Below are positions 7,145-63,528 of a stretch of 64,000 bases of DNA, in pieces. The stretch spans positions 98,194 through 162,193 of the forward strand of contig NMRA01000488.1 of NCBI GenBank assembly GCA_002633005.1, in the 5' to 3' direction. Within the stretch, counting starts at the first letter, position 1. The number at the start of each line of letters is the position of its first letter. The notes under the pieces are model-generated. The model made no database searches and was not told where the DNA came from. It was given only the letters and a program-made list of their open reading frames with translations. The translations under genes were made by a program, and so were the position numbers. The stretch comes from Phoronis australis (lineage: Eukaryota; Animalia; Phoronida).

Positions 7145-7757
7145 CTTGATTAGGTTGGACACCAACTTTTATATTGACATCTCCGGGGGAGCGCAGATGT
7201 GTCAAGAGTTCATCTACACGGTTTACTCTGGGTGAACTTTGAACCGGCACTATAGATGGCGCTGTAATTGTCTCCCTAACAGGAACTTCTTTTTCATCCG
7301 AACTTGTGCTACTAACAGAGCCAGACATTTGCCTCGCAGGCTGACTACCAGCAAACTCCACAGGTGGCGCTGACTTGACCATCACAGGAACAGGTCTAGT
7401 AATTTGTGTAGAGGTTTTAGTCGTCGTCGAATGTCCACTGACATACTTTGTAGGCTGTTGACCTTGACCTTGCCGATAGGACGCGGGCAACGTGGATGAC
7501 GGAAAAGCGGGTGAATCGTTGATGCCGCCATCTTGGGCAAGATTTCTGGGCATTGTACCTCCGATGCTCTGAAGATGTGGGCCAGCGGAACCATCCGTGT
7601 ACGAGAACTTCATCTGAGAAGACTGCACGCGGCTGTACAAACCCTCTTCATCTCCTGTTGACAGACGTGGGGGGCGAGGTGGGACAGGGGGTGGTCCCTG
7701 ATGCGGCTCATACAACCGCTTCAGTTCCTTAAACTGTTCGAAATGCACAGAGGACAT
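7145..7757 (-). CDS. First coding exon of a Pro/Ser-rich adaptor-like protein (possibly paxillin/zyxin-type LIM family; remainder mostly outside the window)
   Basis: GC-richer 204-codon frame. ATG 7757 has an in-frame TAG just upstream. Acceptor ttgtttcag| precedes 7809 and donor CAAG|GTACGT is at 7144. Motifs: PPPVPPRPP, EEGLYSRV, LD-like VDELLTHL. Confidence 0.75.
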
Positions 7758-21105: not shown

Positions 21106-23076
21106 GTGTAACACTAACATAACTTTGAATCAGCGATTCATATGAACAAAGTTATAAACTTGTTATGGTCCACTGCATTTATATTACACGGATACAATTA
21201 AACTTTTTTATTGCAGGAAACCAAAAATTATTTTCATTAAAATAGTTCAAAAAGTGAATTTGAGATCGTCAATCAATGTAAATTATTTTTGAAACAACTG
21301 TATCAAAGATCTAGTAGTGTGTGATTTCAAAAGTTATTAGGGTGTTAAAACATATTATAAACGAAGAAATTCTCATGAAATCCATTGACAAAAACTCATG
21401 AAAATACACGCTGGTCAAGATCTCAATGACAGTCTGAAACTTTAGATTTGCTGGTAAGTCAGAAGTGAGATTCATCAAGGAATGATTGAATAACAAGGAC
21501 GTCTATTCCAACTCGACTAAGCATGTTTGACATGCAGCAATTTAAAACTTGGGTAAGCACTTCACATAGCAACGAACATGCAATATCAGAATAATTAAGT
21601 GAAATTGCTATACAGTAAACATATTCTGGCAAATGGCCAAAGTACAAAAATAAATTTCGACAGACAAAAACCATGATGGACATCAGCCACAGTTGGCGGT
21701 GATATCAATGCTAACGAGTTTAAAGTATAAGTAACCATTTTTGTCCAGTCAGATGCAATTGTATTAGGCTACTACCAGAGAGGGGCCGTGCAGACAACAT
21801 GGCTCAATAATGGATCAACACTTAGCACTGCGAGTCCTGAATAGCTGAAATTTGTGTGACCAAGAGATAAAAAATTGCATCGTCATGCTCATGACAGTAG
21901 AATAATTTCCCATCGCTGACATTCACCTGAAAAACAACAGTGCAATACATTCCACCCCATTGAGCACCACCTTTTGATAAGCTTGAGCGCCACCTTTTGG
22001 TAAGCTTGAGCATCACCGTTTGGTAAGCTTCCATTTTCAATCACCTAGTCGTGAAACTTTTAAATTTAGACAATGGAAGTATTGATTGTAAAACTTTCTT
22101 GTGATTTAAAATAAAAAAGTTTTGCTGAATACTTAGCATAACATTTTATTTGCTTGAACAGAAAATTAGTAGTGTCTCTTGACCCCAATATCCTGCGCAA
22201 CTTCCCTCGGTATACTTCCTGTAGTATTTGGCTTATCTGCTTGGAAGCGGCGTGACAACTTTGTGGTGACCTTCACTTTTTATCGGGTCGCCAAATGAAA
22301 TCTGAAGTCACATAAGCGACCTGCTTGTTGAGCCATTTTGTTATATAATTAAAATTTAAAATCAATTCACTGTGAGATGATTTTTCACAGAGAAGTGATA
22401 CATAGCAACTCTCGGGGAAACGGTGTTGTGGTGGCCACGCTGCAAAAATCAAGCACAGGTGTGCGTTATTGCAATTTAGGTGAGAAGCGCACTGTTTTAA
22501 CATAAGCAACTACCGTAGTGAAAAATCACCGTGTGTGGATGTTTTTTTTCAACCGCTTAACATTTTTAACGGCCATCAAAGTCGGTGGCGAACTGCTGCC
22601 AAATTACGCTATCAGTAGCTGCAGCAATTGTAGGTACTTTGCATCTGTTTCATGAAATGGCGATGAGAAAAAGACGGTTAATGAACTAAATTTTTTTCCT
22701 CTAAGTAATTACTAGAACGAGTCCTACTTGTGTCCCTTACGGCTGTTTATAAAAACACAATCTGATGAAAATCATTTTCTTACATCACTCTCCCGCTTTT
22801 GTACTAAAGAAAATAAGACGCTGAGTTCAAAGCATCACGCTTATGACAAGTGCTATATTCGGTTTGGTAAAGTGACATCTTTTGTGAGATGATTCCCCCA
22901 GAATTTCTGTTTGCTGTCACTAAAGTACTCAAAACCAGGTAACAAACTGAAATCACTCTTGCTAATTTGTTGTGAACTGTGCGTAATCATTGGCTTAAAG
23001 AATAGTTGAAAACAGAGATTGGCTAATAGGTAACGCTCAATTTCATGGCACCCAAAGTTCACTCACATATGATCAC

Positions 23077-23237
23077 CAGTGGTGGATTTAAGGGGGGGCC
23101 AGGGGGGCCATGCTTCCCCCCCCCTAAAATTCTCCCATATTCCATTTGCCAATACGGGGATCCGAATGTCTGATGGGCAAAATCCTGATTAATACTATGC
23201 CCTTCCTCCCCAACTCAAAATCCTGGATCCGCCCCTG
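23077..23237. mobile_element. MITE with CAG..CTG ends and 5-bp TSD (hAT-like), copy in unit 1
   Basis: CAGTGGTGGATT ... GATCCGCCCCTG, flanked by ATCAC on both sides. Confidence 0.7.
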
Positions 23238-24713
23238 ATCACTCCACAAATTTAACTACAAAACAGCAGACTTACAAAAACCAAAGTAGCTTAGTCAAGG
23301 AAGAGTGTAGTTTTTAATGGGATTAACTTTCTGCAACATTATGTTTTATTCACTTTTACTCAGATCGTTTTCAATCAGTATACAGTTTTGGACACCAAGG
23401 TTATATCACCCCCCCCCCTTTCCCNATATTTGTCCAGTGAGATGCAATTGTATTAGGCTACTACCAGAGACTGGCCGTACAGACAACATGGCTCAATATT
23501 GGATCAACACTTAGCGCTGCGAGTCCTGAATAGCTAAAATTTGTGTGACAGAGAGATAAAAATTACATCGTCATGCTCATGACAGTAGAATAATTTCCTA
23601 TAACCAGCATTCACTTGAAAAACAACAGTTCAATACATTCCACCCCATTGAGCACCACCTTTTGGCAAGCTTGAGCACCACCGTTTGGTAAGCTTCCATT
23701 TTTAATTACCAAATCGTGAAACTTTTAAATTTAGACAATGGAGGTATTGATTGTAAAACTTTCTTGCGATTTAAAATAAAAATGTTTTACTCAATACTTA
23801 GCATAACATTTTATTTGCTTGAACGGAAAATTAGTAGTGTCTCTTGACCCCAATATCCTGCGCAACTTCCCACGGTATTCTTCCTGTAGTATTTGGCGTA
23901 CCTGCTTGGAAGCAGCGTGACAACTTTGTGGCGACCTTCAATTTTTATCAGGTCGCCAAATGAAATCTGAGGTCACATAAGCGACCTGCTTGTTGAGTTG
24001 TTTTGTTGAATAATTAAAATTTAAAATCAATTCACTGTGAGAAGATGTTTCACAGAGAAGTGACACATAGCAACTCTTTGGGAAACGGTGTTGTGGTGGC
24101 CACGCAGCAAAAATCAAGCACAGGTGTGCGTTATTGCAATTTAGGTGAGAAGCGCACTGTTTTAACATAAGCAACTACCGTATTGAAAAATCAACGCATG
24201 TGGATGTTTTTTTTTCAACCGCTTAACATTTTTAACGGCCATCAAAGTCGGTGGAGAACTGCTGCCAAATTACGCTATCAGTTGTAGGTACTTTGCATCT
24301 GTTTCACGAAATGGCAATGAGAAAAAGACGGTTAATGATCTAAATTTGTTTTCCTCTAAGTAATTACTAGAACAAGTCCTACTTGTGTCCCTTATGGCTG
24401 ATGAAAGTCATTTTCTTACATCACTCTCCCACTTTTATACTAAAGAAAAATCAGACGCTGAGTTCAAAGCAGCACGCTCATGACAAGTGCTATTTTCGGT
24501 TTGGTAAAGTGACATCTTTTGCGAGATGATTCCCCCAGAATATCTGTTTGCTGTCACTAAAGTACTCAAAACCAGGTAACAAACTGAAATCACTCTTGCT
24601 AATTTGTTGTGAACTGTGCGTAATCGTTGGCTTAAAGAATAGTTGAAAACAGAGATTGGCTAATAGGTAACGCTCAATTTCATGGCACCCAAAGTTCACT
24701 CACATATGATCAC

Positions 24714-24874
24714 CAGTGGTGGATTTAAGGGGGGGCCAGGGGGGCCATGCTTCCCCCCCCCTAAAATTCTCCCATATTCCATTTGCCAATACGGGGATCC
24801 GAATGTCTGATGGGCAAAATCCTGATTAATACTATGCCCTTCCTCCCCAACTCAAAATCCTGGATCCGCCCCTG
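24714..24874. mobile_element. Same MITE, copy in unit 2
   Basis: Appears identical to 23077..23237, with the same ATCAC flanks. Confidence 0.7.
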
Positions 24875-26019
24875 ATCACTCCACAAATTTAACTACAAAA
24901 CAGCAGACTTACAAAAACCAAAGTAGCTTAGTCAAGGAAGAGTGTAGTTTTTAATGGGATTAACTTTCTGCAACATTATGTTTTATTCACTTTTACTCAG
25001 ATCGTTTTCAATCAGTATACAGTTTTGGACACCAAGGTTATATCACCCCCCCCCCTTTCCCTTGCACGACTGAGGGTAGTGTTGTGAATTTTCAGTTCGC
25101 GATGTGATATGAAGTTGTTTAGTGAGTGCGCTCAGACGCATGTACAGAAAACAGTTACACGGCACTAGTCTGAAGGTGTGCATGTTTCTCTGTACTACTA
25201 ATGATTCTTCGTACCTCACTGAATGGACGCGCGAAAAGCAATCTCTAAACATTTTCAAAAATGTAACTGAATTTGCACATGTGCGACATCGAAGGTGATA
25301 TACTTTGAGCTCAACATCACCTACCCAGTACCAGGAGCCTTCGCTATGAAAGAAAAAAAAGCGAACAAGATCATGGTTAATTGCCAATTTACTGGAAATT
25401 AAACTGGCTATAACTTGAGTCATGAAAGCGAATTTTGCTGTTCATCAAAATTTTGCTGTTCGTCAAAAATCTCAAATCAAGGCATTTTTAATGCAGCTAC
25501 TGTCATTGACTTGACTTGGTTCTCGTGAGGGTTTCCAGGTGCATCAGTGAGTTTCATAGAATGATGAAAATATTGAATTTTAATGTTTTAAGGCTCACTT
25601 CCGCCTTATTAGTAGACTTTCAGACAAGTGCACCTTCGGCTTCGGCCTAGTGGCCTAGTGCACCTTTGGATTTAAGTGCATCTCCGCACTAGTGCACCGT
25701 CGTACTAGTGAGCTGATCCCACACAAAATTACCAAAGCGTCGTGCGCTGAATGTACCACAGGATGATGAATTTTCGAATGACTCATAACCATATAAGGAA
25801 ACATGTTTTGTCAGTGATTGCTGCATCAGTGGTGATCCAGCCCCAGGAGCAGATGAACTCAAATGCCTGTGGCATGTACAATAATTTTTACCCACTAAAG
25901 TCATCAATGCATTGATGAGGGCTCTTAAACTAGGCATTCCCTTCATTTTTAGAAATAACCCAGAAAATTGTGAACATCACTTGAAGTAAACACTGGTAAA
26001 TTCCGCATATCGCTCTTAC

Positions 26020-33570: not shown

Positions 33571-33739
33571 ATGTCTACTGCTGGACGCATATATGTTGAG
33601 GGTGTACCCAGCAGTGCTTCGCGGGAGAGGCTGGAGCTGTTTTTCACCAAGGTTACTCAAGGTGCTGACATCAACCATGTGTACTTTCCACTTCCTCTGA
33701 AACCCCAGACAGCCGTGGTAGAGTTTACAGATCAACTAG
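33571..33739 (+). CDS. Coding exon 1: PARP14/NMI-type RRM
   Basis: RIYVEGVPSSASRERLELFFTK...AVVEFTD. In-frame TGA at 33559 lies upstream of the ATG. Acceptor at 33541, donor G|GTATGT. Confidence 0.8.
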
Positions 33740-36700
33740 GTATGTTCTACGATATTCTCAATAGTTACTTCTTTTAATATGTCAAACTCTTGATCAAATT
33801 GAAGATAAAATGAGAAGTGTCCTTGCTGGAAGATTTTTTGTTCACATATAATTGAAAACTCCTGTAGTTTCGCAAGTGCATCTGTTGACACTTTTTTGAT
33901 GAATGCTAAGTAGCCTCATTTTGCCCCCTCCCCCTATTCAGATAAGACCTGATTTCAAGGCTTGAGAAGAACTTGTTTTTGATGCAGACCAGGCTCACAG
34001 AGTTAATTGTCATCGCAGGTTACTCTTTACAGACATTTTGTTGTAACGCATGGACAAAGTTGTTATTGACAAAGGTTTTTGGTGGCTTTAGAGGCGATGC
34101 TTCGAAAAACTTCGCAATTGTAAACAGTGTAGAGTGATGTAAATACAGTATGTGTAGATGTTTCATTTCGTCCTGTCGTAAGAAAAGTTTCAGGTCACGT
34201 GATCATCTTTCCTGGTCAGTAAGATCAAACGTTCAGCTGCTAAAATTTTATGACACTGTCTCACTTCTGGAATGCTGTATAATAACAAGCAAATGATGAA
34301 ATTTAGGATTTTCATATTCACCAAGTGTGATAAATCAGTCCTCAAAAATAGGGAAAATTCACCTTTTATGACAAGTTTCATTGAAGGTACCCTCCTAAAT
34401 TACCTGGCAAGCTTTTCACTAGTTTTAGAGCATAGTAGTTACATGGTTATGTAAGAAAAATATGTCCACCGGCTTTCTCTCCCTACAAACTCAAGTCAGA
34501 CATCCTGCAAGGTTCTCAATCTTGCCACTGAGTTAGCTGCTTGGCATTTCCTAGCCATCCTACAGTGATTGACCTTTGATTGGGGTCATTCCATTGACTA
34601 CGAAATTTGAAACTGGACATCACCTCCACAACCCTTTTTATTAAGAGCAATATGAATAAGATATCAAGGTGCACATATTGTTTCTTTGTGTATTTTCAAA
34701 AATGACCCCAATCGAATGTCGGACAACATCCAATGACAAGGTAGCTAGCCTAGTGTTTGATGAGCGCATCACACGGTGGGGAAAGTGGGGAAATTGAGCT
34801 CCTTGCATGATATCCAAAATCAGGATTTTAGTCTGCATGGATCAAATGACTGTGGAGCATAATCCCGAGTGTTGAACAAAACTTTCATTTCAGTTGTTGA
34901 CCTAATTCTACAAGACACTCAACATGGTTACCGCTACATTCAGTACAAAGAGGGTGATCAAAGTGACCCGATCCGGTTGTCTGCATATGAAGTAGGTGAA
35001 CCCTTAGAAAATACTGCACCCCTTTGGGATGACACTCGCATTTGGATTAACTTCAACCATAGAATTTCAAAAGTGTATTTAAACACCCTTGTTTTGCTGT
35101 TAGGCTTAATGTTCATTCAGTAATTGTAAAATGTTTCACCTGAAATGCAATGAATGTTAACTTTTAATTATGCCAAATTTATTGTCTCGGTTATTGGCGA
35201 GCCAAAGACATGCGCTTTTATTTACAAGTCTTTCACCTCAGGCCTTGCAGGTTGAATAGATAGTGTTTTATTTATTTGCTATGAGAAATTGGTGTATTTT
35301 AATTTGTGCATTACAGACATCTTTGTCTGCTCCATAACTTTTATAGAATGGCATTCATTTGTAGAAACTTAAGCATCACTCTGTTCTGTTTTTAACACCG
35401 CATTTATGAAAACAGAAGTCAGGGTGTGGAAACGGTTGTATGGCTGCATCTCTAAATTCCAACTTCAATCTTCTGAACCCCTGGGTCATGTGGACCATCA
35501 AAACTACAACTGTGATACAAATTCTGTGCCCTTGCTGCTAGCTTCACGTACCTGCCAAAAATGCTCCGTGCCCGGTGACCAAATTTGACCCAAATCATAG
35601 GTGTCAATTTGGAATCTGGTTCTGGGGTATGAAGTATTTTCAGTGTATTTATAGCATTAGGGGATTTGCTAGTTCAGGAATGGGATGTAGGTGATCGTAG
35701 TTGTAATTTTAAAGGATTGGCCATGGGACTGTTTGCACCCCCTGAAAATGTGACTGATCGATATTGTTGAAAATTCATTAGTTTTGGCCTTGTAAGCGTA
35801 GTGTGGATGTCACTTTCCACCTCACTAATTACTGCTCTATTACAATTCTATTATTTTTGTGTATGAAGCAGATTGATAGGTTCAGCACATTTTCATTGTA
35901 GGGACCAGAGAACCCTCTACTCTCGTTGGAACTCGACTCATTTGCCATCAGCGGCATGGAGATCAATTCTCAGGACGACATTGACAGGATAACGGAGATT
36001 ATGCAGAAGCCTTTTGTGCACTTTAGCCAAGAGATAAAGTTCCTGAACCTTGAGGAGGTCATCAGCAAGGAAGCCAAAGACGAGAACTTGACACCATCTA
36101 AAATGGCTACCGTCAATAATGACAGCACTGTGAAACTTGACTTCTCTGGTCTTCACAAAGTCTTGTACGATAAAATGGTGCAGTGCAAAGTTTCTAAGGT
36201 TGGTAGCAGACTAAGGCTTCTGTTGCATTAAAAGAGATTCGCAAAGAGGCTTTTGAAAGCCTGATATCCTATTTTTGTTAGAGTCGTGTCTTCTACTACT
36301 AAAAATTAGAAGACAAAATTAATGTTGCCGCAATGGTGATCTTTATTTACATTATTTTGGGTAACTTGGACATGAAAAATTTTCCTTGATTATTCAATTC
36401 AATTTATTAATCACTTTAAATTCTGTTGGTCGCGTTACCTTTCACTTGATTAACGATAAGAACAGAAATTAAATTATGAACTTTAATTAGTTTTTTGAAG
36501 TTCAGTCTTTGAGCAGCAACAGCAGCGGCATCACCAGAGTAATAATATATCACCTGCTGTTTTAGGTGCATAAAATGTTCTTCCCAACGGACGTCAAGTA
36601 TTGCGTTCCTGATACAGCCTTCGACGCTGAGGAGGTAGCACGTTTGTATCAGCGTTCGCCAGGATACGGTGTTCTGACCCAGTCTAAGGAACGGTACCAG

Positions 36701-39700
36701 AGTCACGTGATCAATATGCTGAATGATCTGTCTGATGAGCTGGTCGGCCGAATGAGCATGCTACATCTGACCCACAAGACCACTTTTCAAGACTTGTACG
36801 CTATCTTGACCAAGATAAAGACTGTAAGTATGAGGCCCTCTGTTTGAAAATTAAAGAAAAGTCCTCTTCTGCCAAGGTAAATGTGTCCTTAGACCAGTAA
36901 TTTATTTATCTAGTGTCTGTTTTGACAATGGTCGCATGTGGGGAATCGATGGCAATCAGGACGTTAGGTGCTACATGTCATTTCCCTAGGAGCAACTTAT
37001 GACCGCTGCCTGTTTGTGGCAACTTTCTTTCCTGTGCCTTTTAGAATCTATGGACTATAAAAACTAAAAACATTATAGACTGTGCTCAAATACATTATAG
37101 TTTATGCATATGAGTTTCTAGTCCAAGTTTGCACTTGATGACCTTTATATTCGTGTGACAAACTTGAGTAAAAACTCGAAAGTTTAAGTTCAAACTCGAA
37201 TTTTTACCCTTGATGTTGGGTTTATCAACTGCAAACTGTGACTAAAAAATTGTCCACATATGTCATTATGAATATAATAATAGACACTTATCTTGAGTTC
37301 GCACAAAAATAGAGTACAAAATACCAAACATAATTTCGAGTTCCATTTTTAGTAAAAGATTAGAACCTGGGGCCAAGGATCAGTATTACTTCAAACGTTT
37401 TTTTACAATCGCATTATCGAAATTAATAGTCACACTGATCTAGTTCAAAAAGTGTTAACAGTAAACAGACTCTCCCGCTTAATCATTTCTTGTTGTTCGA
37501 ATGCAGGTGATTGGGTAACTTTTCAGGTAAGAGACAAAACGTTACTGAATGGCCCTCAACTGATTCATGTTCAGAGCCTGGATTTCTACAGTAAAGTTGT
37601 GCAGCTTCCTATCTTGAACAACGTGATCATTTACACCAGGAAACCCAACATCACCTTCATACAGTCATCCATGGATAGCCAACTGAAAGACAACGAAATG
37701 GCCACCAATCTGTTTCAGGCTGGACTACGCATCCACATAAAAGGGGTCAGTAAAATACTCAGCCAGTGCGTTATCACAGATGTCAGTCAGTTGAAGCCGG
37801 AAGATGCCAAGCTCATTTCTGAGGTTGCCACGGAAAAGATGTCGGTGACGCAGAACCTTAACACCCCACCGGCTAGTCCTGCGTCGACAACAGTTATGTT
37901 CAAGTCTCACTTCGCTTATGAAGAGTGGCATGGCTTGCGTCGTTATTCCAGCATTGATGTGGCCCGGATAGCAGAGAAACGTAAGCGACAGAGAGCGGGC
38001 CTCAGCGATGCGTATACCAGTATATCCGATAACGTCTTTGTTAACTACTCACTGAAATTTGCCGGTATTGCAAAATGCCTCGATGCCATCAACAAGGTCC
38101 AGGCCAACGATGTTCTGCAGGTTACTGATGTCACTGTTGGTCTCCTCGACACTGGAGTCTCTATGTTCCATAAGGCATTCTCTCCAGATCAGATTCTTGC
38201 TGTTCAGAATTTTGTCAAGGGAGATAGTTTGGATGCTATGTGGGATGTTAACGGCCAAGGCACCCATTGTTGCGGCATCCTTGCAGGTGGTGCGTATGCA
38301 GCGCAGGTTCCATCCAATGCGCAGATAATAGACGAGCCATTAAAATTCGTCAATGGGGTTGCACCGTTTGCCAAACTTGTTATGGCCAAAGTGCTTGACC
38401 GATCGACCTACAGCTCCTCTGAAAGCTTAGCTGAAGGAATTGAGTGGATGCTCCAGTTGGAAGAACACGATCCTCTCTACAAGGTGGACATTATTTCCAT
38501 CTCAGCGGGCGACATGCAGTACTGTCATCGACTCCGAGCAGCCGTATCCATGGCTACTGTTAAAGGGAAAGTTGTGATTTGTGCTAGCTCCAATGACGAA
38601 GAAAGCCACCAGACGGGGATAGTGTACCCAGCGCGATTTGCTGATGTCATCTGCGTTGGCAGTCATAATGCCAGAGGTCAAGTGTCAAGGTTCACGCCCT
38701 TGGGTGAGCTTTTTTGATGCTTCTTTAGATAATGTGTTCACTGCAGCTGAAGCAATAGAAACTTTTAACGTACATTCAAACTTCTCTTGTATGTGGATTT
38801 GTCTTGCTATAATTGTTATCATACATAAACCTTGCTTTTTGCCATTCCATGGCAGTATTGTGGAATGCCAATAAAAATATGAAGAAACTTTATTGCTGCA
38901 GTTCTTGTTATAAATGTTTGAGAGGCAGAAACCTTGAAAACTTTATAAAGTTGGGCAAAATTTCATGATTAATCTCTATTTTGTTTTAGTGAGAGTACTT
39001 GCATTCAAAGTCTTGAATCATTGAACATTAACACTAGGCAAGCCTTATTACATGTTTGCATATAGGACGCGAGATGGACTTCCTTGGACCCGGGGATGAC
39101 ATTTGGTCTGCTGCACCAGGGTCCAGTACAGCTGTCCAGAGGCTCAGTGGTACAGCCATGTCTGCACCCTTTGTCGCTGGCGTGGCTGCTTTGGTGCTGC
39201 GATATGCGGAGGCTGTTGGTAAGTCTCATGTTTAGGGAGCATCTCCACTTGAAGTTTTAACTGTATTCTGCAATAGTAGGATATAACGTGCCGACATTTT
39301 GAGAATCATTATTCAGTTGAGAAAACTAGCTCTGGAAATACAGGGATGTTGTATCCAGCTATTATTGCTGTAGTCGTAGTGGTTTACACACTAAGTGTTT
39401 GATTTGAGAAACTTGTAAATCAGTATTGGCTTCAAGCCGAGAGTGGGTATTTCAAGTGAAATGAAAAATCGGGTCGGCGTTGAGCCGAGGTAAAAATTCA
39501 AGTTGATACCCAGAGAGCTGCACTTATGTGAGTCACTTTGCATGCGGTAGTCAAATAAGACTTTGGCTGAAAATACACATTGCACTCGTGTAATTCATAG
39601 GACAGCAAATTCTTCATGGTAGTATTCACGTACTGGATATTTTAAAAGAAACTAAATGCACAGAGTGTATATCGGGTTTGGGTGTATTACAGGATATGAG

Positions 39701-40248
39701 CAAAATAGTAAAGAAATTGGAGACTGGCCGTTAAACTGAATAATGTTGTTAATCTAGACGAGTACTAATAGTTAACTAATACTGTTTCCATTTTGACATT
39801 GTAAATTTTTAGAAAATACTGGGATTATGAACAATCTGGTTAGTTCCTCGAAAATAAACACGCAAGCCACATAGGCAGTATGATTGCCACTGAAACATGA
39901 TTGGATGACCCTTGGGAGTGTCACCCCACAATGCCATGGTCAAGATATCTCACTGCTAGAATTCTGATTGGCTTCTTTGAAGCAAATTAGCATAAATGTA
40001 CACTTCAGAAATGTGCCCAGTCACAACTCTAATTTTGCTTTTGTCATTCAGGAGGTGAAAGTTTGAGGAAATTGGCATGCAACAATGCCGTCATGCGGGA
40101 AATCCTGCGCGTCATGTCAAGCAGCCCGGGCCACCACAGTGAGGCTTACGGCTATGGAAGCATCAACCCTTGGCGTGTTTTTGAGTTTGGAACGGACTAC
40201 TTTAAGAACCTCGTCACTAAGATTGTGTATGGTGAAGTTCAGCAGTAA
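33571..40248 (+). CDS. RRM-containing intracellular subtilisin-like (S8A) pseudoprotease, ~782 aa, 7 coding exons
   Basis: Exons 33571-33739, 34894-34991, 35902-36198, 36566-36823, 37527-38703, 39066-39218 and 40052-40248 join with GT-AG and matching phases (2349 nt, no internal stop). S8 motifs: LLDTGV, NGQGTHCCG, GVAPFAKL, ASSND, YPARF, SGTAMSAPFVAG, YGYGSIN. Confidence 0.85.
34894..34991 (+). CDS. Coding exon 2 (end of RRM)
   Basis: tttcag|, phase 1, VVDLILQDTQH..., donor GAA|GTAGGT (alternative donor at 35074). Confidence 0.7.
35902..36198 (+). CDS. Coding exon 3 (unassigned region)
   Basis: ttgtag| ... AAG|GTTGGT, phase 0/0, 99 codons. Confidence 0.8.
36566..36823 (+). CDS. Coding exon 4 (unassigned region)
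   Basis: ttttag| ... ACT|GTAAGT, phase 0/0, 86 codons. Confidence 0.8.
37527..38703 (+). CDS. Coding exon 5: linker plus S8 Asp, His-position and oxyanion motifs
   Basis: Lies within the 421-aa ORF. Acceptor tttcag| at 37526 (phase 0), donor G|GTGAG at 38704. Confidence 0.9.
39066..39218 (+). CDS. Coding exon 6: S8 nucleophile motif (not in the ORF track)
   Basis: GREMDFLGPGDDIWSAAPGSSTAVQRLSGTAMSAPFVAGVAALVL; atatag| ... G|GTAAGT. Confidence 0.9.
40052..40248 (+). CDS. Coding exon 7 (last): S8 C-terminus
   Basis: attcag|, phase 1, MREILRVMS...YGYGSINPWRVF, ends TAA. Confidence 0.85.
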
Positions 40249-41949
40249 ATGAGACTCTTACTGAATTGGGTGTAATGCGGGTATGCGTGCATGAGTTGGG
40301 AGAGCGAGGCTGCAGGTGTTGTATCTATTCAAGCATAGAATTTTTAGAATCGCAAAATAACGAACCTTTATGAAATGATTTTCTTTCCGTAACATTTGGT
40401 CTTGATGACGTATTTTCTTGTTAAGTATTTTAACTCCTCAAACTTTTTTTTTGAAAATTGTTCCTGTACCGAGTTGTTCTGGACAGTCTGTCGGGACCAT
40501 ATACTGTGACCTGAAAAACTAATCCCTAATTTGGGGTATACAATGAGATTTACGCTAGCCAGTTTTTGTTGAAGAAGTGCCCACATTTATCTGTATCTCT
40601 TTGTTTAGCCTGGAGAGCATGGAAGCATGCACTTAAGTAGCAAGGGTGTGAAGTTCTGAATATGTAACCTGCTTGACATGCAATCTTACCTGAAAGCATG
40701 TGATGTTATGTCAGTGTTGGAATTGCCTACTGATATTGTTGTAACCACAGCTAGTCTCTTCCATGTAATCTTATCTACAAGCATATGTTACATTGGTGTA
40801 TAATAACCTACTGATGTTATATCGACATCCAGTCTCTTCCATGTAATCTTATCTATAACCAGGTGGTATTATGTCAGTGTTGGGATACCCTGGTGATATG
40901 GTCATGTTCACTGGGCTAATGCCTAGACCATTTAAACTGAGAAATCGAAAATCAAGGCGTGGACCTTAAACCAAACTTAACAATACATGGTCGCTTAAAA
41001 GTGAAATTGCTTCAAATTTTGACATAGGAAGTTAGCAATACGTGGACATCACCTGTAAAAGAGGGTGCCCATTGTACACGGAGAACTCTAATGATCGTTT
41101 TTGTTACAACTCAAACTGATGTCTATACATCCAGTAAAAAGAGTAATGCCTTATATGTTCATTTAATTATTCTGTCGCATTTTGTTATGATTTATAAGGC
41201 AGTAGTTCGTAAGTTGGGGCTTGAACCAAGCTGCATACTAATTCGTAGGCTGTATAATTTTAAAAAATGCTGAATTTCGTTACGGGTTTTGTTTTTGTGC
41301 CATACGGAAGTGATCTTTATGCAAGGTTTGCTATTTTTATGCATTAAGAATTTCAATACTTAATGCAGCTATTTCTTAAAATGTTGAATCCGTTCTTTTT
41401 GGTGATGGACCAACTATGACTGATGGGCTCATATGTTGTCAAAGGCAATAGGTGCCAGGGTGCAGAAACTACTGACTACCATTTTGACAATTTTTTGTCT
41501 CATTGTTACCTTTAATCTTCTTGACTAAAGCTGATGTACATACCAGTATTATGTACTCTACTTATTCAAGGCATGCTGTGTTTTGACTCGGGGAAGGCTT
41601 GGATCTCTGCAAGTTCTCTAGGCATGTACAATTTTAATAGGTTTAAAATATAAGACTGAATTCAGGAACAAAATATAAGGAAATTAAGTTTGTTCGCATA
41701 ATTGTGTGGTACTGACTTCCAAAGGACAAGTCTTCCCGTGAAAAAATCAAATTTGTTAATGTTCGCACTACGCAGTGTCCGTATTCCATGGGAAATTTTG
41801 GAAAGGAACAAAATTTGTAACGAGTTGTGTAGAACATGCTTGTAAATTGAGCTTATTTGTGCTTCATTGGTGTTACTTATTTGCAGTTATCTGATCAACA
41901 TTACTAGAGTGTCACTGGAAGTAGGCACACCCACATAATCATTTTGTAT

Positions 41950-47000: not shown

Positions 47001-50000
47001 GCCAAAATAGTCTTGACATTGTAGTTGTGCCCTAACCCCTACACAACATTTCGCTACGGTAAGAGTGAATTCCGGAGAAGTGACTCAAAATCCAAACGAG
47101 AATGTTGTTTGTGGCGCGACTTGATTAGAGCAGACTGTGAGTCAAGACATGAGTACCCGAAATTGATTCGCCAACGGTGAGCTGGCGAACGGCTAGCATG
47201 AGCCTAGTCAAAGATTCCAGAAAAGATGGTTTTCTTTATCACAGCAATATTTATTGGAATCTATTTTGCCTACTGAAACAGCAAACCATGAGGCAAATGG
47301 TTGCAAAAAATTGTTTATGGAGTAAGCAAAGACTGCAAGATGGGCACCAAGAAAAATGTCATGACGACAGAACGTGAATAAGACATGGAACATCCTCAGT
47401 AATTATATTATACTGTCCAGTACTACGGTAAAATCTCACCAATTTCGGACAAAAATAATTGACAAAATTGGTCTTTTTTCAGTTTTCAAAGGCTTCTAAT
47501 ATTGTTTTGAATGTCCACAGTTGCTGAAAACATTGCCTGAAGGTAGCCATGGCATAGACATTTATATTTGGTATATCATCTATTTGGTGCTAATTATCTT
47601 TTATGAAAAAAAATGAAAACACAAATTTCACTTGTCGGCCATATTGTGTCCTAAATTGGTGAGATGTTACCGTACTTGATGTATACCAGTTATATTTGTA
47701 TCTAGATTTCCTACTTGGATGGTCTAATAAACTTCCCATGAAAGTTCATTAGGAAATTCATCAAAATGTCCTTGAGATTATGTTGCAAATGCAGCCTTAC
47801 TCAGTAAAAACAATCCTTATACACTCAAAACAAACGTTATCATACCTATGAGAAGTGGGTGATGTTTTGCTTCGTCAGTGAAAATCTCCGCCAGCACTGG
47901 CACTAGTTTACTGTAGTCATGACCACTGTGATAGGCCTTCATAGCCTCCCTGAACATGTTGTAGGATTCTGTACTCAACACCTGCTTGACTCGGGCTACG
48001 TAAGAACTAGCACTGCCCCCAGTGGATGTCTGTCAAGGAAGAAGGGTGTGACACACGGAATGTCTTCAGAAAATGGTAATAGTTGGATATAACATGCCCT
48101 CATTTTGAGAATCAGTTTTCTCCACTGGATAACGGGCATCAAACTGGTTCTCAAAATATGGGCATCTTACATCTGACCATTGCCCATAAAAGAACAAAAT
48201 CTGTTGTTCCTAATGAGTGGTGCTATCTTTTGGCAACAAATATAAAGCGACCACTTAAAATTGCAATTCACGAAAAAGTAGAAGAATTGACCATTTTACG
48301 GTTTAGAGATTAATGGTATATCTGCAATAGATTGTCGGACACTGGTTTTCCATGCAAAAATATTACTAAACTAACCAAGAAACCAGATAATGTATACTTA
48401 CATCTCAGCTAACCTATTTCGAAAAACAAGAAAATGCACAGGCGTTAACTCCTGATCATTGTCTAGAATGGGGATTCAAGTAATACTTGGAGGCAAGATA
48501 TCTCGAATAGCTAGTTCATGGACTTGACCATTAGAAACAGATACCTGGCATTTTAACAAAATTTTCTTCTTAGTGGCCACAGCAGATTTCTGTTCCAACT
48601 CCTCGTAAGCAGCTTTCTACAAAAAAGGCAACGAAACTGTGTGAATGTCATCAAACATAGTCTGGTTTAATTACTACACAAATTATGTAAATCCGCTTTA
48701 TGGTTCACTCTCCAACCTCACCATGCAGATCATAGATGTCAGCACTGTGACTAATTCGTGTGGCTCTCCTGCAGGAACCGGACTCAAGCATAAATTTTTT
48801 CTTGGTTTCAGTTATGTTGCTCAGTTCTCCTAAGAACACCAATTCCACTTTTATACAAAATCAAGCTCTCCACATTGTAAATGGAATGTATTTTACTTCT
48901 TTCTGTTTTTAACACAAAAATCAAAATTGTAACAGTCACGGGTTCAAAGTTAAACGTTAACTAAATAACTAAGTCAAGACTGCAGTTTAATCGTGTATTC
49001 TGACGACCATAGAAACCCCCTCCCCAAACCCCCCATATTTCAAACTCTCTTACTTGACTGCCTCAACCACAAGGTTTTCACTAAAGGTTCCCCACATGGA
49101 AATCTACATATCAATAGATAACGCAACAACAGGTGACCAAATGGGCATTTGAATATGAATAGCCAACTCTGCTGCGTGTCGCGAAACAAGGAAGATTAAC
49201 TTTACCATAACAACATGACTTAACATACCCTAGAGAAGTAAGTATCAGGTTCATCATCTTCGTTTTTCTGAAACAAGCATGCCAAGGTGTAACTGAACCA
49301 GATAATGGACAAAATTATTCATCGTCTACACAAACATACATTACATAAAAATTCTACCTCGCATTGCAGAAACGCCTGGTTCCTTCTACTGCAGAATCGA
49401 AATCGCTGGATTTCAGCACAAACTGCCGGTATTCATGTACATCAATTTCTGAATCAGCACCCTGACTCGTGCACTCGACTTTTTCAATTTGACACCATCA
49501 CGTCAGTACCTCATTGTCAGGAGGAAACTTCAAGTGTGTTTTTGCACATCAAATAAAACCTAAAGCTGTTACCAGTAACGGGCAACAGTCATGTACAGCG
49601 TCTTAGACTTTGAGAACCAGTTTGATACATATTATGATTAGAGAAAACTGGTTCTCAAAATGCTGGTCCCCGTAAGTATCTATTACCCAGTAATGTATTA
49701 CACCATAATGGAGACAATAAGTACTTGAACAAATTCATTTATCACAGTGAAAAACGTAACAGAAGGGAAATCTAATCGAGTAGTAGGAATAACAGATATT
49801 CCAGACATACCTCATTATTATCCAATGCATCCAGCAAGCCTCTTTTTGGCAGTGTTGGCTTGGCACGGACGCTTGTCAAAGGCAAGGAATATTGTGACTG
49901 CAACACTTCTTCGACTTGAGCTGAATACAGAGACAAAAACGTTTAACAATTAGTAACATTCAATATTGATAATGGCAATCCGGAAATCCTACATGCCTCT

Positions 50001-53000
50001 CCGTGGTTGTGTTTGCATCTATTTTCAGACACTTGTTCTCCCAATGAAGTGTTAGCCACGGAAAAACGAATGTAAATTTTTACAGATAACATGAGTGGAT
50101 GTGGACGAAAAATTATGTTGCCACGCGAAGTGATATGTTCTTTATATGTGAGATGCAGTCATTCAGCTTTCGAAAAGATTTGCATACAGTAATATTTCAA
50201 AGGAAATGCGATGCAAGTTTATTCATTACTTGTAAAGCACCTTTCAAACAGCATGGTTGTTTTCTTGATTCGATGACATACATAATAGGGCCATCCCGGA
50301 TTACGCAGTGATAGAGCTCTCCTTTGTCTCAGAGGTAAGAAAGCGCAGTGTTTTCATTGACCTACTTTTGGAATGCCATGCACGTTTTCACAGGTCTTAT
50401 CATAAATCATTGAGGTCTGTGGCCATGCAAATACTCCCAATTTCAACCCTTTAAAAAGTTCCAGAATTGGAAGGTGTTTTCAAGACAGTGATTTTGTTCG
50501 GTTCAAAATTAGCCCGAGGTATTTGCGTTATCTACTCACTCCACATTTTCCTGTCTTTGCTTGATGTCGAGAGGGTGACGAACTTAACATCACCCACCCA
50601 TGGTTATTTGTCAAGTTTATCCAACTTTCTCCAGTCAGAGTTGAAACCCACAGCACAACACTAACACTTTATTGGCATTGTAAGGACGAGATAAATTTAT
50701 AAAGAATACGAAAAGAACAAAGATTTTGTGGAACTCCAATGTTACAAAAATATGTGCCTGACGGATATTGCAGCACTGTGGGTAAATACAGCGAGATTCG
50801 AGTGTCGCTGCATAATCTGGGACAGCCTATTAATGTTTACTTTGGTTTTAATAACAGAATATTTGTACTATGTATAATTAAAAACAGTTGTCAAAAGTTA
50901 AACGACTTAACAGGATTGTACAATCCATATAATCGTGAATGTAAACTTTGTCTGTGATAAATTTTTGTAAATTTATTTTCTGGTTTCATGGTTTACAGAC
51001 TGAAATGGGCAAAACTCAACCTCAGGTTGACAAGCAACAACCAGTTTATGTGTGAAATTATTATAACAGCGTTTTCATACATTAAAACAAAAAATGGAGA
51101 AATTTAAGTTGCACTCACCGTTTCCCACCAGTAGACTCGGCAGATGGTTTTCCACATGACTAGCTTTAGAGACAGTCAGCTTTTTGCGCACCTCAGACTT
51201 TGAGGGCATGAACGCCGCGGGTACAGAATATGATGCTGTCTCCTTCCTTGGTCTTACTGAAGGAGTTGGACACTGAAATTTCAATTTTGGTTCAATTGAA
51301 CAAAAGAGAATTTACAAAAGCACAACAAACAAGCAAATCAGATGTGAGAAATCATATTCACAGAAAGGAGTCAACTAAAATAGAACATTGATATGATCTA
51401 CTTTTTAAACTGCAAAACTTAACAAAATCCAGCAGCAAACACAACCAACAAAAACAAAATAAGATGAATAATCTGGCACTAAAATTTCAAAACACCTCCA
51501 ACTAATATTCGGGGTTATTAGCTTATTATTTTTCATATTAACACTTTTTCATATAATTTCAGTCAAATTTTAATGACAAAATTTTGAAATATAAGAAGAG
51601 CCAAGTCATACAATCTCCTCTGCCTTTTTGAAGAATTTGCACAGGTCCCTCAACACATGGCCAAAATTGTCGTACTTCTTGACGTAGTGTTTCACCCACG
51701 CAGGAAGATTGCTCACCGACTCGGCAGACGAGAATCTAACAAATAGATAATGATTTGAAGTTCTGTAACAATAACATGCTGTAGTTACTGTTATGACAAT
51801 ATTGTCAAATAAAGTGACAAAGAGCATAGCTTACAAATGTTTACACATGCAGCTGATTATGTCAGAGCATCATACAATAGAATAAAATTCTCACTGAAGA
51901 AAAAACAGATTGGACACCCTGGAGTCTTTGCATTGTCAATCAAAATTATGCAAAAAGGAAGCTCAAATATCAATGAATAAATGCTTTTAAGGTCCACAGT
52001 CATCAAATATATAATGCCCTCCTCAAGACACTAAGTTGAGAGGTCTAGCAGGCCAAGCAAGCACCCTGGTTTCAATTTTCACAACTAAGTGCGAGTGAAC
52101 AAATACTATGAGAGAAGTCAAACTAGCCAAGTATCACACAGCTGAGAGCAGTCCTCCTAAAAAAAAAAACCCAGCTCCGAAAAGTTAAGCTTACCAAGTA
52201 TCACACAAGTGAGAAGTGAAGCTTACCTAGTATCACACAGCTGCAAGAAGTCAAACTTACCTAATACTGCACAGCTGCAAGAGGTCAACTCTACCAAGTA
52301 TCAAACAGCTGAGAGAAGTGAAGCTTACCTAGTATCACACAGCTGCAAGAAGTCAACCCTACCAAGTATCACAAAGCTGAGAGAAGTGAAACTTACCTAG
52401 TATCACACAGTAGAATGGCACCGTAGTCCTGTTTATGCCGAATGACACGCCCAATCGCTTGATTGACAGCTCTGGTAGCCTGCTGTCTGTACCACTCCCA
52501 GCCTGTCAAGTACTGCGAAGAAATGAGAAAAGTGTTCTCTAAATCAGAAAGTAATAACTACAACACAACTGCATGAGTAGAAAACAGTCAGATAAAATAC
52601 TGGTTTCTGGGCTTACCTTGTTTATTGAAGATTTACTTTTTGTTAATAAACATACAAAAAGTAGAAAAATCCCATACAAAATTGCTATGTGCAAGATCCT
52701 GCCCCTTAGTCCAAGTATATACAACTTTCAACAGAAGCAGAACTGATTTGCTTAAGAATGACATAACTTCAGGATATTGCACTATCAATGCACGTTCTAA
52801 ATCCTCAAGGTTTTCATGACTTGGCTAACTCTTATAATTTTCATTTTTTTCTCTGGTTTCTCCATCTAAGCTGACCATGAGGTTGCACGCTAGTCAGCCA
52901 ACTGGTAGTTTTTGTTAAATTTTGCAACTTACTGTACAACTTGGATTTTTCAATTGATTCATAGTTTGTAAACTAAAAACAAAAATGTCAGTTTACTGGA

Positions 53001-56000
53001 CTGTTTTCTTGCTCCACTACAGATAAATTTTTACAAAACATAACTAGTACTGTTCGACTTTTCATCAGAGCTTCGATAAACTGGATGGCACTGATGAGAC
53101 CTTGACATTTTTGAAGACTACAGAAACATAGCAACAGCACACGAGCTCATCAATACCTCCGACTTTTTTCGCTTCATCTCGTCCAGGAATTGCATTTTCA
53201 ACATGACACGAGCATCTTTCATAGGCGGAAACGGCAGTCCAGTGATGATCACAGCACGACCATTGATGTCAGCAAAATCGAGACCCTCACTAACCTGACA
53301 CCAACAATAAACAAATGCCGTCTCACAAAGAAATATTTTCCGTGGAAGGATACATCCGTAAATTGTGGATACTGACAACTATATCAACACTTTTCGTTAA
53401 GCAATAATTAATTCATACACTTCCTATTGGCCATTGTTCAACAGCTAAAAGAATGAAATCACTAACTGCAAACATGTTTTGTGGACTATGGTTAGTCACC
53501 CATCTTTAATCCAACCAGTGGACGGTCAGAAATTTTGTCTAATTTCGTAAAAAAGAAACAATTTTCCATTTTAACCCGCAAATCTTTGTCAAATGCTTTG
53601 AACCTTTTGGGATATACTGCGTGACTGAGGCGGCTAATGATTCAGATATTTGCAAGTCACTATCAAATTATCTGATAGAAACTACCACGAAAAGCTATTT
53701 CAACAAATCATACACAAACCAATCTGCAGTTGTATCCATAGATGATGTGTATGTGAAAATAGATTCTACAAAACACCTCTGCCCTTTCGAAAGAGAACAC
53801 ATACCTCACACGACCAGTGCTAGTCCCCAGCTTTAAGTCACATTATCGACAAGACATGAGTCAATGACTTGAGTCAGATCATTTTCGCCAAAACTTTTCA
53901 AAAGCACTTAGCAACTGACCACATACATCAAAAGTGTTTTTAGAATTCCTTCAACCATGCAAAGATAAGTGAGTAGCACACCCAGGACACTTTAAGGCAT
54001 CAACTTCTTGATAACCTCTCACTTACCTTTCCTCGACACACAGCAGCAAAGACAGCGCCATTCTTTGATGGGTCATTGATACTGGCGTAAAAACTGTCCA
54101 TTGCCTGGATACATTAAATCATACTATATATCAAATACAACAAAAATGCAAAGAATTACACAGGTTCATGGCTTAAGACAAACACTGAATACAACTGGCC
54201 AAGTTATTTTTAGCGTGACATTCAATTACAAAACCTGCATTCAAAGTATGCTGCAGGTAAAACAAACTTGGCATTTCAAACTAAAAAAGTCAAGATTTAA
54301 TAAAGCCACAGTACCTTGCTTGGTAGGTTTTATTATTGATATTTTAAACACCTTCAAAATCATCTGTGCATTGAACTTGTAAGTCATAATTTTGAAGGAA
54401 AAAACAATGGATCCTATGTCAAAGTTGGGAACAATTTTTGGACACACACGATGTTGTATGAGTATGCACATGCCTTCAGCAATCACAGAATCATCGGGAC
54501 AGAGATGCACAAGAAAGCACCCAAAGAGAAGAACATGGAAATTGATTTTCCAATAAAAACTGTCTCTAACAAAAGCCCGAGGATAAGCTATGCTATAATT
54601 AGCGCAAAAAGCTCTCCAATACCAGACGGATCTCTCAAACATTTGAGGAATTCAAGTGAACAATTTACAAAGGCAAATTTTTCTACTACATGTCATCATA
54701 GTTTTGACCTGATTGTCCGGTCACCAATAAACGGTGGCTTTTAATAGAGGCCAAGACTATGGATGTGCTAAACAAACAAATGTTTGGGCTCCTATAGGGA
54801 CCATAACGGTACCAAATGTGGTTCCTGCATACCTGCTGGAAGCTGTCTTTCCTTTTGGGTTCTACAAAGATGTCTTTGTACTGAAGAATGCGGTTCCAAA
54901 TACCATTAGTCTGCAACGTATATACCACGTAAAGCAACTGTGGATTGAGTCTGACAGATACTTCACATGACGATGTTAACAAGGTCAGGACTAGATATGA
55001 CCAAGATTATGCGAACTTTTTGAACATGTAATGCCAAGCTTGGATTACATTGCAGATTACTGACCAGATTCAGGTGTGGAATTTGTACAAGGTAAATATT
55101 ATATCTGATCAAAAGACAGAGTAGATGCACAAAAGGCATCCTATCTGCTGTCTCATAAGTAATTTAGAATAACATAGTGTGCAAAATGCCTAATCACATG
55201 CAACCACTGAGGGCAAAAGAATAAAATATGAGTCAGACAAAAACTGCAGCTTTTGGAAGTTACTAGGTTTTATATGGAACTAATAAAATTAACAATCAAC
55301 AGTTTTGACCTAGCCATTCAGTCTAAATTTTTCTCGATGTCAGCAAATACTCTGTGGTCTGTAATCACTAAAACGTTGAAACTTAGGTAGGAAGAATGAA
55401 AAATACCGGCAAGTACATTTAAAAAAATAGCAAAACTTTTCAAAAACGTATTTATCATCAGAGAACATGAAAGAAGAAGAGAAAAATGAAGGCACATTAT
55501 GCAAAGTTATGAACACAAGCGCATTTTAGCATGCAAGAAAATTTTGATAACAAGGATATTACAAGAGTGCATCTTTCTTTTTAGGATATAAAAATTCAGA
55601 GCCAAAACCAATTAAAAATAATGAAGACAGTATTGTTTCGATACAAATTAACCTAATTACCTGCCAGTGTTCTGTGCAGTCATTCATTACAGTGTATGAT
55701 GGGAAGAACAACAACACCCCATGTGGTACATTCTTGATAAAGTTGACAATGGCGTTGCCTAGCGACGACTTGTACTCAGAGGAGAACCTGGAGAAATGTC
55801 AAAAGATAAACAAACACTCAGATAAAAAAAAAAACGATAAACAAACAAGAACACGCGTTTGAAGCAATCTCCCATGTGGACCACAAAAAATTTGGACTCC
55901 TTTTCATGATAACAACCACCATGAATGAGAGGACAATTATTGAACAATGTTGGTTAAGACATGCTACTCAGAATAAAGTACAAGACTTTAAACCAAAGAC

Positions 56001-63349: not shown

Positions 63350-63528
63350 CTGTAAACAAAGTATCAAATATGACCATTTCCACTACAGCAGAATGGGTGA
63401 ACTACGAACACGATGGGCCAAGCAACTCAGCACAGTCCATACACAGACATGCAAGCATGAATTGTCTGGTCTACTAAACAACGCTAGCAGGGAAAATATT
63501 GATTGAAACTGGAGGATTAATGATGACG

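What the first reader, a model, noticed from the sequence alone, without database searches (positions are those of the whole stretch)
38148..39157. Intact subtilisin domain with catalytic His->Gln and Ser->Ala: a preserved pseudoprotease
Seen: the Asp motif LLDTGV is intact (GAC 38148) and the oxyanion Asn (ASSND) is kept. The His motif reads DVNG-Q-GTHCCG (CAA 38256..38258) and the nucleophile motif reads SGT-A-MSAP (GCC 39155..39157). The Ser motif is in an exon missing from the ORF track. Known: in S8A subtilases the first His of HGTH and the Ser of GTSM are catalytic, so proteolysis should be abolished. The frame, splice sites and structural motifs (GVAP, YPA, APFVAG, YGYG) are undamaged. 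Inference: this is a selected non-catalytic fold rather than a decaying pseudogene. It could be a substrate trap, an inhibitor decoy or a regulator of an active paralog, analogous to cFLIP versus caspase-8.
Basis: partly seen in the sequence, partly recalled or inferred. Interest (0 to 1): 0.85.

Follow-up and report, generated by a model that had tools for sequence, protein, structure and literature searches.

The report
Dead subtilisin kept by an invertebrate
This animal gene is spliced, expressed and strongly conserved, yet its subtilisin-type protease domain lacks two of the three catalytic residues, so it is predicted not to cut proteins and likely acts inside the cell as a binding partner or brake for working proteases of the same little-studied animal family.

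Summary
A 7-exon, 782-codon gene has Asp482 and oxyanion Asn630 intact, but Gln518 for the catalytic His and Ala697 for the catalytic Ser. RNA reads of three samples show all six splice joints and no other allele at those codons. The protease domain carries 18 silent against 4 amino-acid variants (pN/pS 0.07-0.09). It is neither an assembly error nor a decaying pseudogene. It sits in a well-supported clade of subtilisins without signal peptide, closest to bacterial intracellular subtilisins, with named members in amphioxus, a brachiopod, an annelid and a sponge. 60 of 77 other clade domains keep the triad; catalysis was lost more than once, and amphioxus fuses live and dead copies in one chain. 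In front lie an RRM-like domain (weak) and a family-specific beta/alpha-repeat domain (weak). Dead subtilisins are known: C. difficile CspA has the same His-to-Gln and Ser-to-Ala pair. So the kind is known; the animal clade and this architecture were not found in 10 literature searches. The partner and pathway are not shown; no active paralog was demonstrated in this organism.

The parts
33571..33739 (+). Exon 1 (coding part): start codon and RRM-like segment, residues 1-56
   Evidence: Pfam RRM_PARP14_3 E 8e-4, 19.8 bits, below the curated cut-off of 24
34894..34991 (+). Exon 2, probably the rest of the RRM-like domain
   Evidence: both joints in RNA
35902..36198 (+). Exon 3, start of the family-specific beta/alpha-repeat-like domain (about residues 90-340)
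   Evidence: weak profile match
36566..36823 (+). Exon 4, beta/alpha-repeat-like domain
37527..38703 (+). Exon 5: end of the repeat-like domain, basic linker, first two thirds of the S8 domain
   Evidence: PF00082 E 4e-20; model with pLDDT mostly over 90 for the S8 part and under 50 for most of the N-terminal part
38148..38150 (+). Catalytic-position Asp482 (intact)
38256..38258 (+). Gln518 at the catalytic His position
38592..38594 (+). Oxyanion Asn630 (intact); two residues on, Glu632 replaces a Gly kept in 59 of 60 active clade members
39066..39218 (+). Exon 6 with the nucleophile helix
   Evidence: PF00082 E 8e-5
39155..39157 (+). Ala697 at the catalytic Ser position
40052..40248 (+). Exon 7 coding part: clade-typical C-terminal segment and stop codon; the 3' UTR continues past 40600

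Best explanation
The gene encodes an expressed, strongly conserved subtilisin-fold protein that lacks the catalytic His and Ser, is predicted to be catalytically dead and cytosolic, and likely works as a non-cutting partner that binds and tunes an active protease of its own animal family. Shown: gene structure, expression, fixed substitutions, purifying selection, membership of the clade, repeated loss of the triad in the clade, live+dead fusions in amphioxus. Inferred: no proteolysis (from S8 enzymology); cytosolic location (no hydrophobic leader); pairing of the dead S8 domain with an active paralog through an intracellular-subtilisin-like dimer surface; the variable N-terminal domains as the input side of a stress or immune pathway.
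For: Fixed Q518/A697 in all covered samples. pN/pS 0.07-0.09 in the S8 core, p about 1e-8 to 2e-7. Of 37 columns at least 90% conserved in 60 active clade members the window keeps 29; the non-conservative losses cluster at the active site (H518Q, S697A, G632E, A523C), the other four are conservative. Ser-to-Ala is the standard inactivating change in intracellular subtilisins (PMC11419036, PMC6220982, passages) and His or Ser to Ala abolishes HET-Q2 function (PMC8851545, passages). Closest solved sequences are bacterial intracellular subtilisins 7xr8 and 7y6m, a group described as dimeric. Six amphioxus proteins (P0001, P0014, P0015, P0029, P0059, P0190) carry a Ser-motif-intact S8 domain followed by a degenerate one, as CspBA does. 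One clade of all dead domains is rejected (p-AU 5e-11), so dead copies arose more than once beside live ones. Two relatives carry an N-terminal death domain (P0118 E 2e-5, P0063 E 0.005). Among the 40 best-supported of 155 differences shown, residues 1-470 have 8 amino-acid and 3 silent changes against 1 and 10 in the S8 domain (Fisher p 0.0075).
Against: No active paralog was shown in this organism: the genome is not held, the window has no second copy, and reads laid at 88% likeness showed no near-identical sister. The neighbour is the housekeeping helicase RTEL1, not an immune gene. The window protein has no death domain. [quoted passage not shown] The N-terminal domain calls are weak, and the regional variant contrast rests on a partial list. 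No immune or stress expression data were examined.
Confidence: 0.4

Rival explanations
1. Dead binding module with no active partner: the S8 fold is used as a receptor or scaffold, holding a peptide, a substrate of the pathway or a pathogen protease inhibitor in or near the old cleft, as CspC/CspA act as sensors.
For: Asp, oxyanion Asn and the glycine-rich framework are kept; the dead domain is the most constrained part; CspC:CspA signal without CspB in the complex; the gene stands alone.
Against: Glu632 beside the oxyanion Asn and Ala601 in place of Phe/Leu/Met suggest a remodelled cleft, which weakens a simple substrate trap; no ligand is known; live+dead fusions in relatives point to a link with active copies.
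Confidence: 0.35
2. Function lies mainly in the RRM-like and repeat domains (RNA binding or adaptor), and the dead S8 domain is a structural or self-dimerising platform.
For: An RRM-like segment not detected in any of 159 homologues and a basic linker; intracellular subtilisins dimerise.
Against: The RRM match is below cut-off; the N-terminal part tolerates more amino-acid change than the S8 domain in the rows shown.
Confidence: 0.15
3. The protein keeps weak or rebuilt catalysis (second His, Ser699, or substrate-assisted).
For: Asp482 and Asn630 are intact; His521 and Ser699 lie near the lost residues.
Against: Both residues also occur in ordinary active enzymes (74 of 130, 16 of 130); both nucleophile and base are lost; CspA with the same pair does not self-process. 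Geometry was not tested because the spliced domain could not be folded whole.
Confidence: 0.06
4. Assembly error, rare null allele or young pseudogene.
For: Each substitution needs only one base change.
Against: RNA reads of three samples and contigs of a second study agree with the window where they cover; 18 silent against 4 amino-acid variants; intact splicing; nearest homologue only 47-48% identical.
Confidence: 0.02

Closest known systems
CspA (and CspC) pseudoproteases of Clostridioides difficile; CspBA fusion (PMC7200643 passages; PMC12880746 abstract and outline)
   Same: S8 fold with a broken triad; CspA has Gln at the His position (Q757) and Ala at the Ser position (A1064); CspBA joins a live and a dead S8 domain, as the amphioxus relatives do.
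   Different: Bacterial spore proteins with a long prodomain; not close in sequence (absent from the 60 best PDB sequence hits shown). The window protein is animal, intron-containing, with RRM-like and repeat-like domains. The match is convergent.
Bacterial intracellular subtilisin proteases (ISP; PDB 7xr8, 7y6m, 2x8j; PMC6220982 passages)
   Same: Best sequence matches among solved structures (E 3e-19, 4e-15); no signal peptide; in a modelled active relative (P0028) the segment before the S8 domain superposes from residue 391 on residue 4 of 7xr8, the place of the ISP pro-peptide.
   Different: ISPs are active single-domain enzymes with an LIPY/F motif; the window protein lacks that motif and the triad and has 470 extra N-terminal residues.
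HET-Q2 of Podospora anserina (PMC8851545, PMC13475620 passages)
   Same: Non-secreted eukaryotic S8 protease without I9 prodomain, used in cell-death signalling; a precedent for cytosolic subtilisins in defence.
   Different: HET-Q2 is active and is linked to a gasdermin gene; no such neighbour was seen here; kinship to HET-Q2 was not tested.
Plasmodium PIMMS2 (PMC5520436 passages)
   Same: Eukaryotic subtilisin-like pseudoenzyme with a needed non-catalytic role.
   Different: Has a signal peptide and transmembrane domain; HGT/GTS motifs are lost altogether.
cFLIP versus caspase-8 (recalled, no call)
   Same: Dead protease paralog proposed to tune a live one.
   Different: Different fold; recruitment by death-fold domains, which this protein lacks.

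Membership tests
Peptidase S8 / subtilase (PF00082, S8A) | Subtilase domain above the curated cut-off and subtilisin fold | tested here: met
   72.7 bits against 21.8; Foldseek E 4e-14 to subtilisins for the exon-5 model
Peptidase S8 / subtilase (active enzyme) | Asp-His-Ser triad | tested here: not met
   Asp482, Gln518, Ala697
Peptidase S8 / subtilase (active enzyme) | Oxyanion Asn | tested here: met
   Asn630
S8 pseudoprotease (as a kind) | Intact, expressed gene under purifying selection with fixed loss of catalytic residues | tested here: met
S8 pseudoprotease (as a kind) | No proteolytic activity measured | not testable with these tools
   Needs probe labelling or cleavage assay
Animal ISP-like subtilisin clade (defined here) | S8 domain inside the clade with named amphioxus, brachiopod, annelid and sponge members | tested here: met
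   78-row clade, support 99; 35-row clade 100/99; names; most rows carry no name
Animal ISP-like subtilisin clade (defined here) | Beta/alpha-repeat domain before the S8 domain | tested here: inconclusive
   10.9 bits, above 300 of 300 shuffles with the bilaterian profile; 24 of 300 and 4 of 300 shuffles reach the score with the other two profiles; hhalign probability 1.4%
Bacterial ISP | No signal peptide | tested here: met
   Highest 11-residue hydropathy in the first 30 residues 0.5; no membrane span apart from the buried nucleophile helix (simple hydropathy, not a signal-peptide predictor)
Bacterial ISP | Short N-terminal pro-peptide with LIPY/F motif | tested here: not met
   No such motif in the 782-residue model; the clade's own pre-domain motif is not clearly recognisable in the window protein
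Bacterial ISP | Dimer | not testable with these tools
   The spliced domain could not be folded whole and no complex prediction was obtained
Csp pseudoproteases (CspA/CspC) | His-to-Gln and Ser-to-Ala pseudo-active site as in CspA | tested here: met
   (resemblance, not kinship)
Csp pseudoproteases (CspA/CspC) | Csp-type prodomain | tested here: inconclusive
   Atlas feature hits to I9/CspB prodomain clusters at 0.87-0.92 with under 100 shared features; that part of the model is mostly below pLDDT 50
cFLIP-like regulator | Death-fold recruitment domain | tested here: not met
   No death-fold hit in six of seven exons scanned (33-residue exon 2 not scanned)
cFLIP-like regulator | Binds an active paralog in the same cell | not testable with these tools
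   Genome not held
HET-Q2-like gasdermin protease system | Gasdermin gene next to the protease gene | tested here: inconclusive
   None seen in a codon-bias scan and Pfam scans of 16 selected stretches; the upstream gene is unidentified
PARP14/NMI-type RRM | Pfam RRM_PARP14_3 above cut-off | tested here: inconclusive
   19.8 bits against 24, exon 1 only; weak hnRNP Q hit E 0.35

The most novel reading that the evidence does not exclude
Invertebrates from sponges to amphioxus run an undescribed cytosolic subtilisin signalling system, akin to fungal HET-Q2: proteases with a variable repeat-type or death-domain input module and an intracellular-subtilisin effector, kept in check by repeatedly evolved dead paralogs such as this one, a subtilisin counterpart of caspase-8/cFLIP that vertebrates lack.
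Probability: 0.2. Interest if true: 0.8.

Novelty: new variant of a known kind. Interest (0 to 1): 0.45.

Why it matters
Animal subtilases are usually thought of as secretory-pathway convertases plus TPP2 (recalled). This gene points to a separate, expanded clade of intracellular-type subtilisins in invertebrates, with no description found in 10 literature searches, in which catalysis was lost several times while the fold stayed under strong selection. It gives a clean animal example of the CspA-type dead site and a testable entry to what these proteases do. As a single pseudoenzyme it is unusual but has precedent.

Tried and rejected
No genome is held, so paralogs in this species could not be counted. 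No second copy in the window. No ortholog found: best hits 40-48% identical and confined to the S8 domain, so dN/dS between species and the age of the loss could not be computed; polymorphism was used instead. The 'longer' search with alignment A1 covered only 1321-3770 residues and returned 21 multi-domain proteins, none shown to belong to the clade. The fold of the N-terminal domain was not identified: S8 matches filled the PDB lists; the viral library gave only a weak F-box-protein match (rank 40, E 0.009, rmsd 6.5); the Atlas gave nothing at 0.8 or above; 'LRR-like' therefore rests on the beta/alpha repeat pattern of the P0028 model. First profile tests of the N-terminus were not significant. 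The complex prediction for the two S8 domains of amphioxus P0190 gave no fold and no verdict; it says nothing about pairing. Shared origin of the window protein with the dead group P0002/P0003/P0017 is neither shown nor rejected (p-AU 0.20), though P0002 and P0003 share Glu at position 632. A bacterial origin of the clade is suggested by the tree but was not tested against other eukaryotic subtilases. No Rfam match in the window. Earlier-findings look-ups by sequence, by two word sets and by genome were empty. No indexed holder was on record as RNA; expression rests on raw-read runs with the same species label. Compensation by His521 or Ser699 rejected on frequency grounds. Supplements of papers were not opened.

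Full report
Observation. Seven exons (33571-33739, 34894-34991, 35902-36198, 36566-36823, 37527-38703, 39066-39218, 40052-40248), all GT-AG, give one frame of 782 residues. Positions are Asp482, Gln518, Asn630 and Ala697. Exons 5 and 6 both match Pfam Peptidase_S8, and the exon-5 model has a confident subtilisin fold.

Real, expressed and fixed. Three raw-read RNA runs (X6-X8, one study, same species label) and contigs of a second study (X5) were laid on the gene. All six joints are supported, on the sense strand. Depth corresponds to roughly 7-21 RPKM (arithmetic). The full variant list for 38120-39225 holds 22 differences, none at the triad codons. Of the 22 differences 18 are silent and 4 change a residue; pN/pS is 0.07-0.09 over three transition weights (p 1e-8 to 2e-7). 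Assembly error and decay are excluded. Among the 40 best-supported of 155 differences over the whole gene, residues 1-470 show 8 amino-acid and 3 silent changes, the S8 domain 1 and 10 (Fisher p 0.0075). On this partial list the dead domain is the more constrained part.

Family. Searches found no ortholog; the nearest domains are 47-48% identical. Of 164 homologous domains 126 read D/H/N/S and 130 keep D, H and S; the window is the only D/Q/N/A row. A tree of 158 domains (7 under 200 residues left out) puts it in a 78-row clade (support 99), confirmed on 41 rows (100/99). Named members come from Branchiostoma, Lingula, Dimorphilus and, through a cluster member, Ephydatia; most rows are unnamed, so 'animal clade' is an extrapolation from these. 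One named row outside the clade is a Myxococcales protein, and the best solved sequence matches are bacterial intracellular subtilisins. Of the 77 other clade rows 60 keep the triad, 4 look like truncated gene models and 13 carry substitutions. These fall in separate groups: P0002/P0003/P0017; the second domains of amphioxus tandem proteins; P0055/P0077/P0108; and single rows. Holding 12 dead rows together is rejected (p-AU 5e-11), while joining the window to P0002/P0003/P0017 is not (0.20). Of 37 columns at least 90% conserved among the active rows, the window keeps 29; the non-conservative losses are His518, Ser697, Gly632 (to Glu) and Ala523 (to Cys). It loses 8 such columns, where active rows lose a median of 1 and other dead rows 3-14. 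His521 and Ser699 are common in active enzymes (74 and 16 of 130), so they are not a rebuilt triad.

Architecture. Exon 1 gives a weak RRM_PARP14_3 match (19.8 bits, cut-off 24). Many clade members have a domain before the S8; in a model of P0028 it is a confident beta/alpha repeat (residues about 166-360) whose fold could not be named. Bilaterian and P0028-type profiles of this domain match each other (E 2e-5, probability 77%), and the window's residues about 90-340 beat 300 of 300 shuffles against the bilaterian profile but not clearly against the other two; the anchor was chosen after seeing the window sequence, so this is weak. There is no hydrophobic leader. Two relatives carry a death domain in place of the repeat domain. 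Six amphioxus proteins join a Ser-motif-intact S8 domain and a degenerate one in one chain, five of them around the repeat domain. The gene stands alone in the window, tail to tail with RTEL1.

Mechanism. Loss of nucleophile and base should abolish proteolysis: Ser-to-Ala is the routine inactivating change in intracellular subtilisins (PMC11419036 and PMC6220982, passages), and either change kills HET-Q2 function (PMC8851545, passages). I put the pseudoenzyme call at about 0.92. For its job I favour (0.40) a non-cutting partner of an active paralog: intracellular subtilisins are dimers, dead copies recur beside live ones, and live+dead fusions exist in the clade. A stand-alone receptor or trap is nearly as likely (0.35): CspA pairs with dead CspC and not with active CspB (PMC12880746, abstract and outline), and no active paralog was shown in this organism. 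A defence context is inferred from death-domain relatives, lineage expansions, the variable N-terminus and the HET-Q2 precedent; nothing here tests it.

Comparison and novelty. C. difficile CspA has the same His-to-Gln and Ser-to-Ala pair, and CspBA is a live+dead fusion (PMC7200643, passages). Plasmodium PIMMS2 is a eukaryotic subtilisin-like pseudoenzyme (PMC5520436, passages). Earlier notes of this scan list several other dead subtilases (unchecked). So the kind is known. The animal clade, its repeated inactivation and this domain order did not appear in the listings of ten full-text searches (listings and abstract starts only, open-licence library only), so absence from print is not established. 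Verdict: a real, selected animal pseudo-subtilisin, a new variant of a known kind; interest 0.45, rising to 0.8 if the clade proves to be a cytosolic defence protease system.

Noticed in passing
window 47868-63357, minus strand: Exons of an RTEL1 helicase gene (DEAD_2, ARCH_RTEL1, Helicase_C_2, weak HHD), tail to tail with the pseudoprotease; useful as a synteny marker.
   Followed up: partly
window 37077-37357 (intron 4): A repeat with inverted structure, covered by many RNA reads on both strands with loose ends; probably a short transposon-derived element common in transcripts.
   Followed up: no
window 21737-25061: A 1.7-kb tandem duplication at 92% identity with an N at the junction (23425); may be two haplotypes assembled in series.
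   Followed up: no
window 7242-7757, minus strand: A Pro/Ser-rich coding exon with no Pfam match; the upstream neighbour is unidentified.
   Followed up: partly
P0001, P0014, P0015, P0029, P0059, P0190 (amphioxus): Tandem proteins with a Ser-motif-intact S8 domain and a second S8 domain that has lost Asp, His and the oxyanion Asn; P0059 also has an F5/8 type C domain.
   Followed up: partly
P0063, P0118: Death domain fused to a triad-intact S8 domain of the same clade.
   Followed up: no
P0002, P0003, P0017: A second dead lineage with Tyr and Trp (or His and Gly) at the His and Ser positions; P0027 has Cys at the Ser position; P0001/P0004 have Cys at the oxyanion Asn position.
   Followed up: partly
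window 40255-40600: The 3' UTR is highly polymorphic (29 differences in a 346-base contig), a control showing that low amino-acid variation in the S8 domain is not due to low diversity.
   Followed up: no
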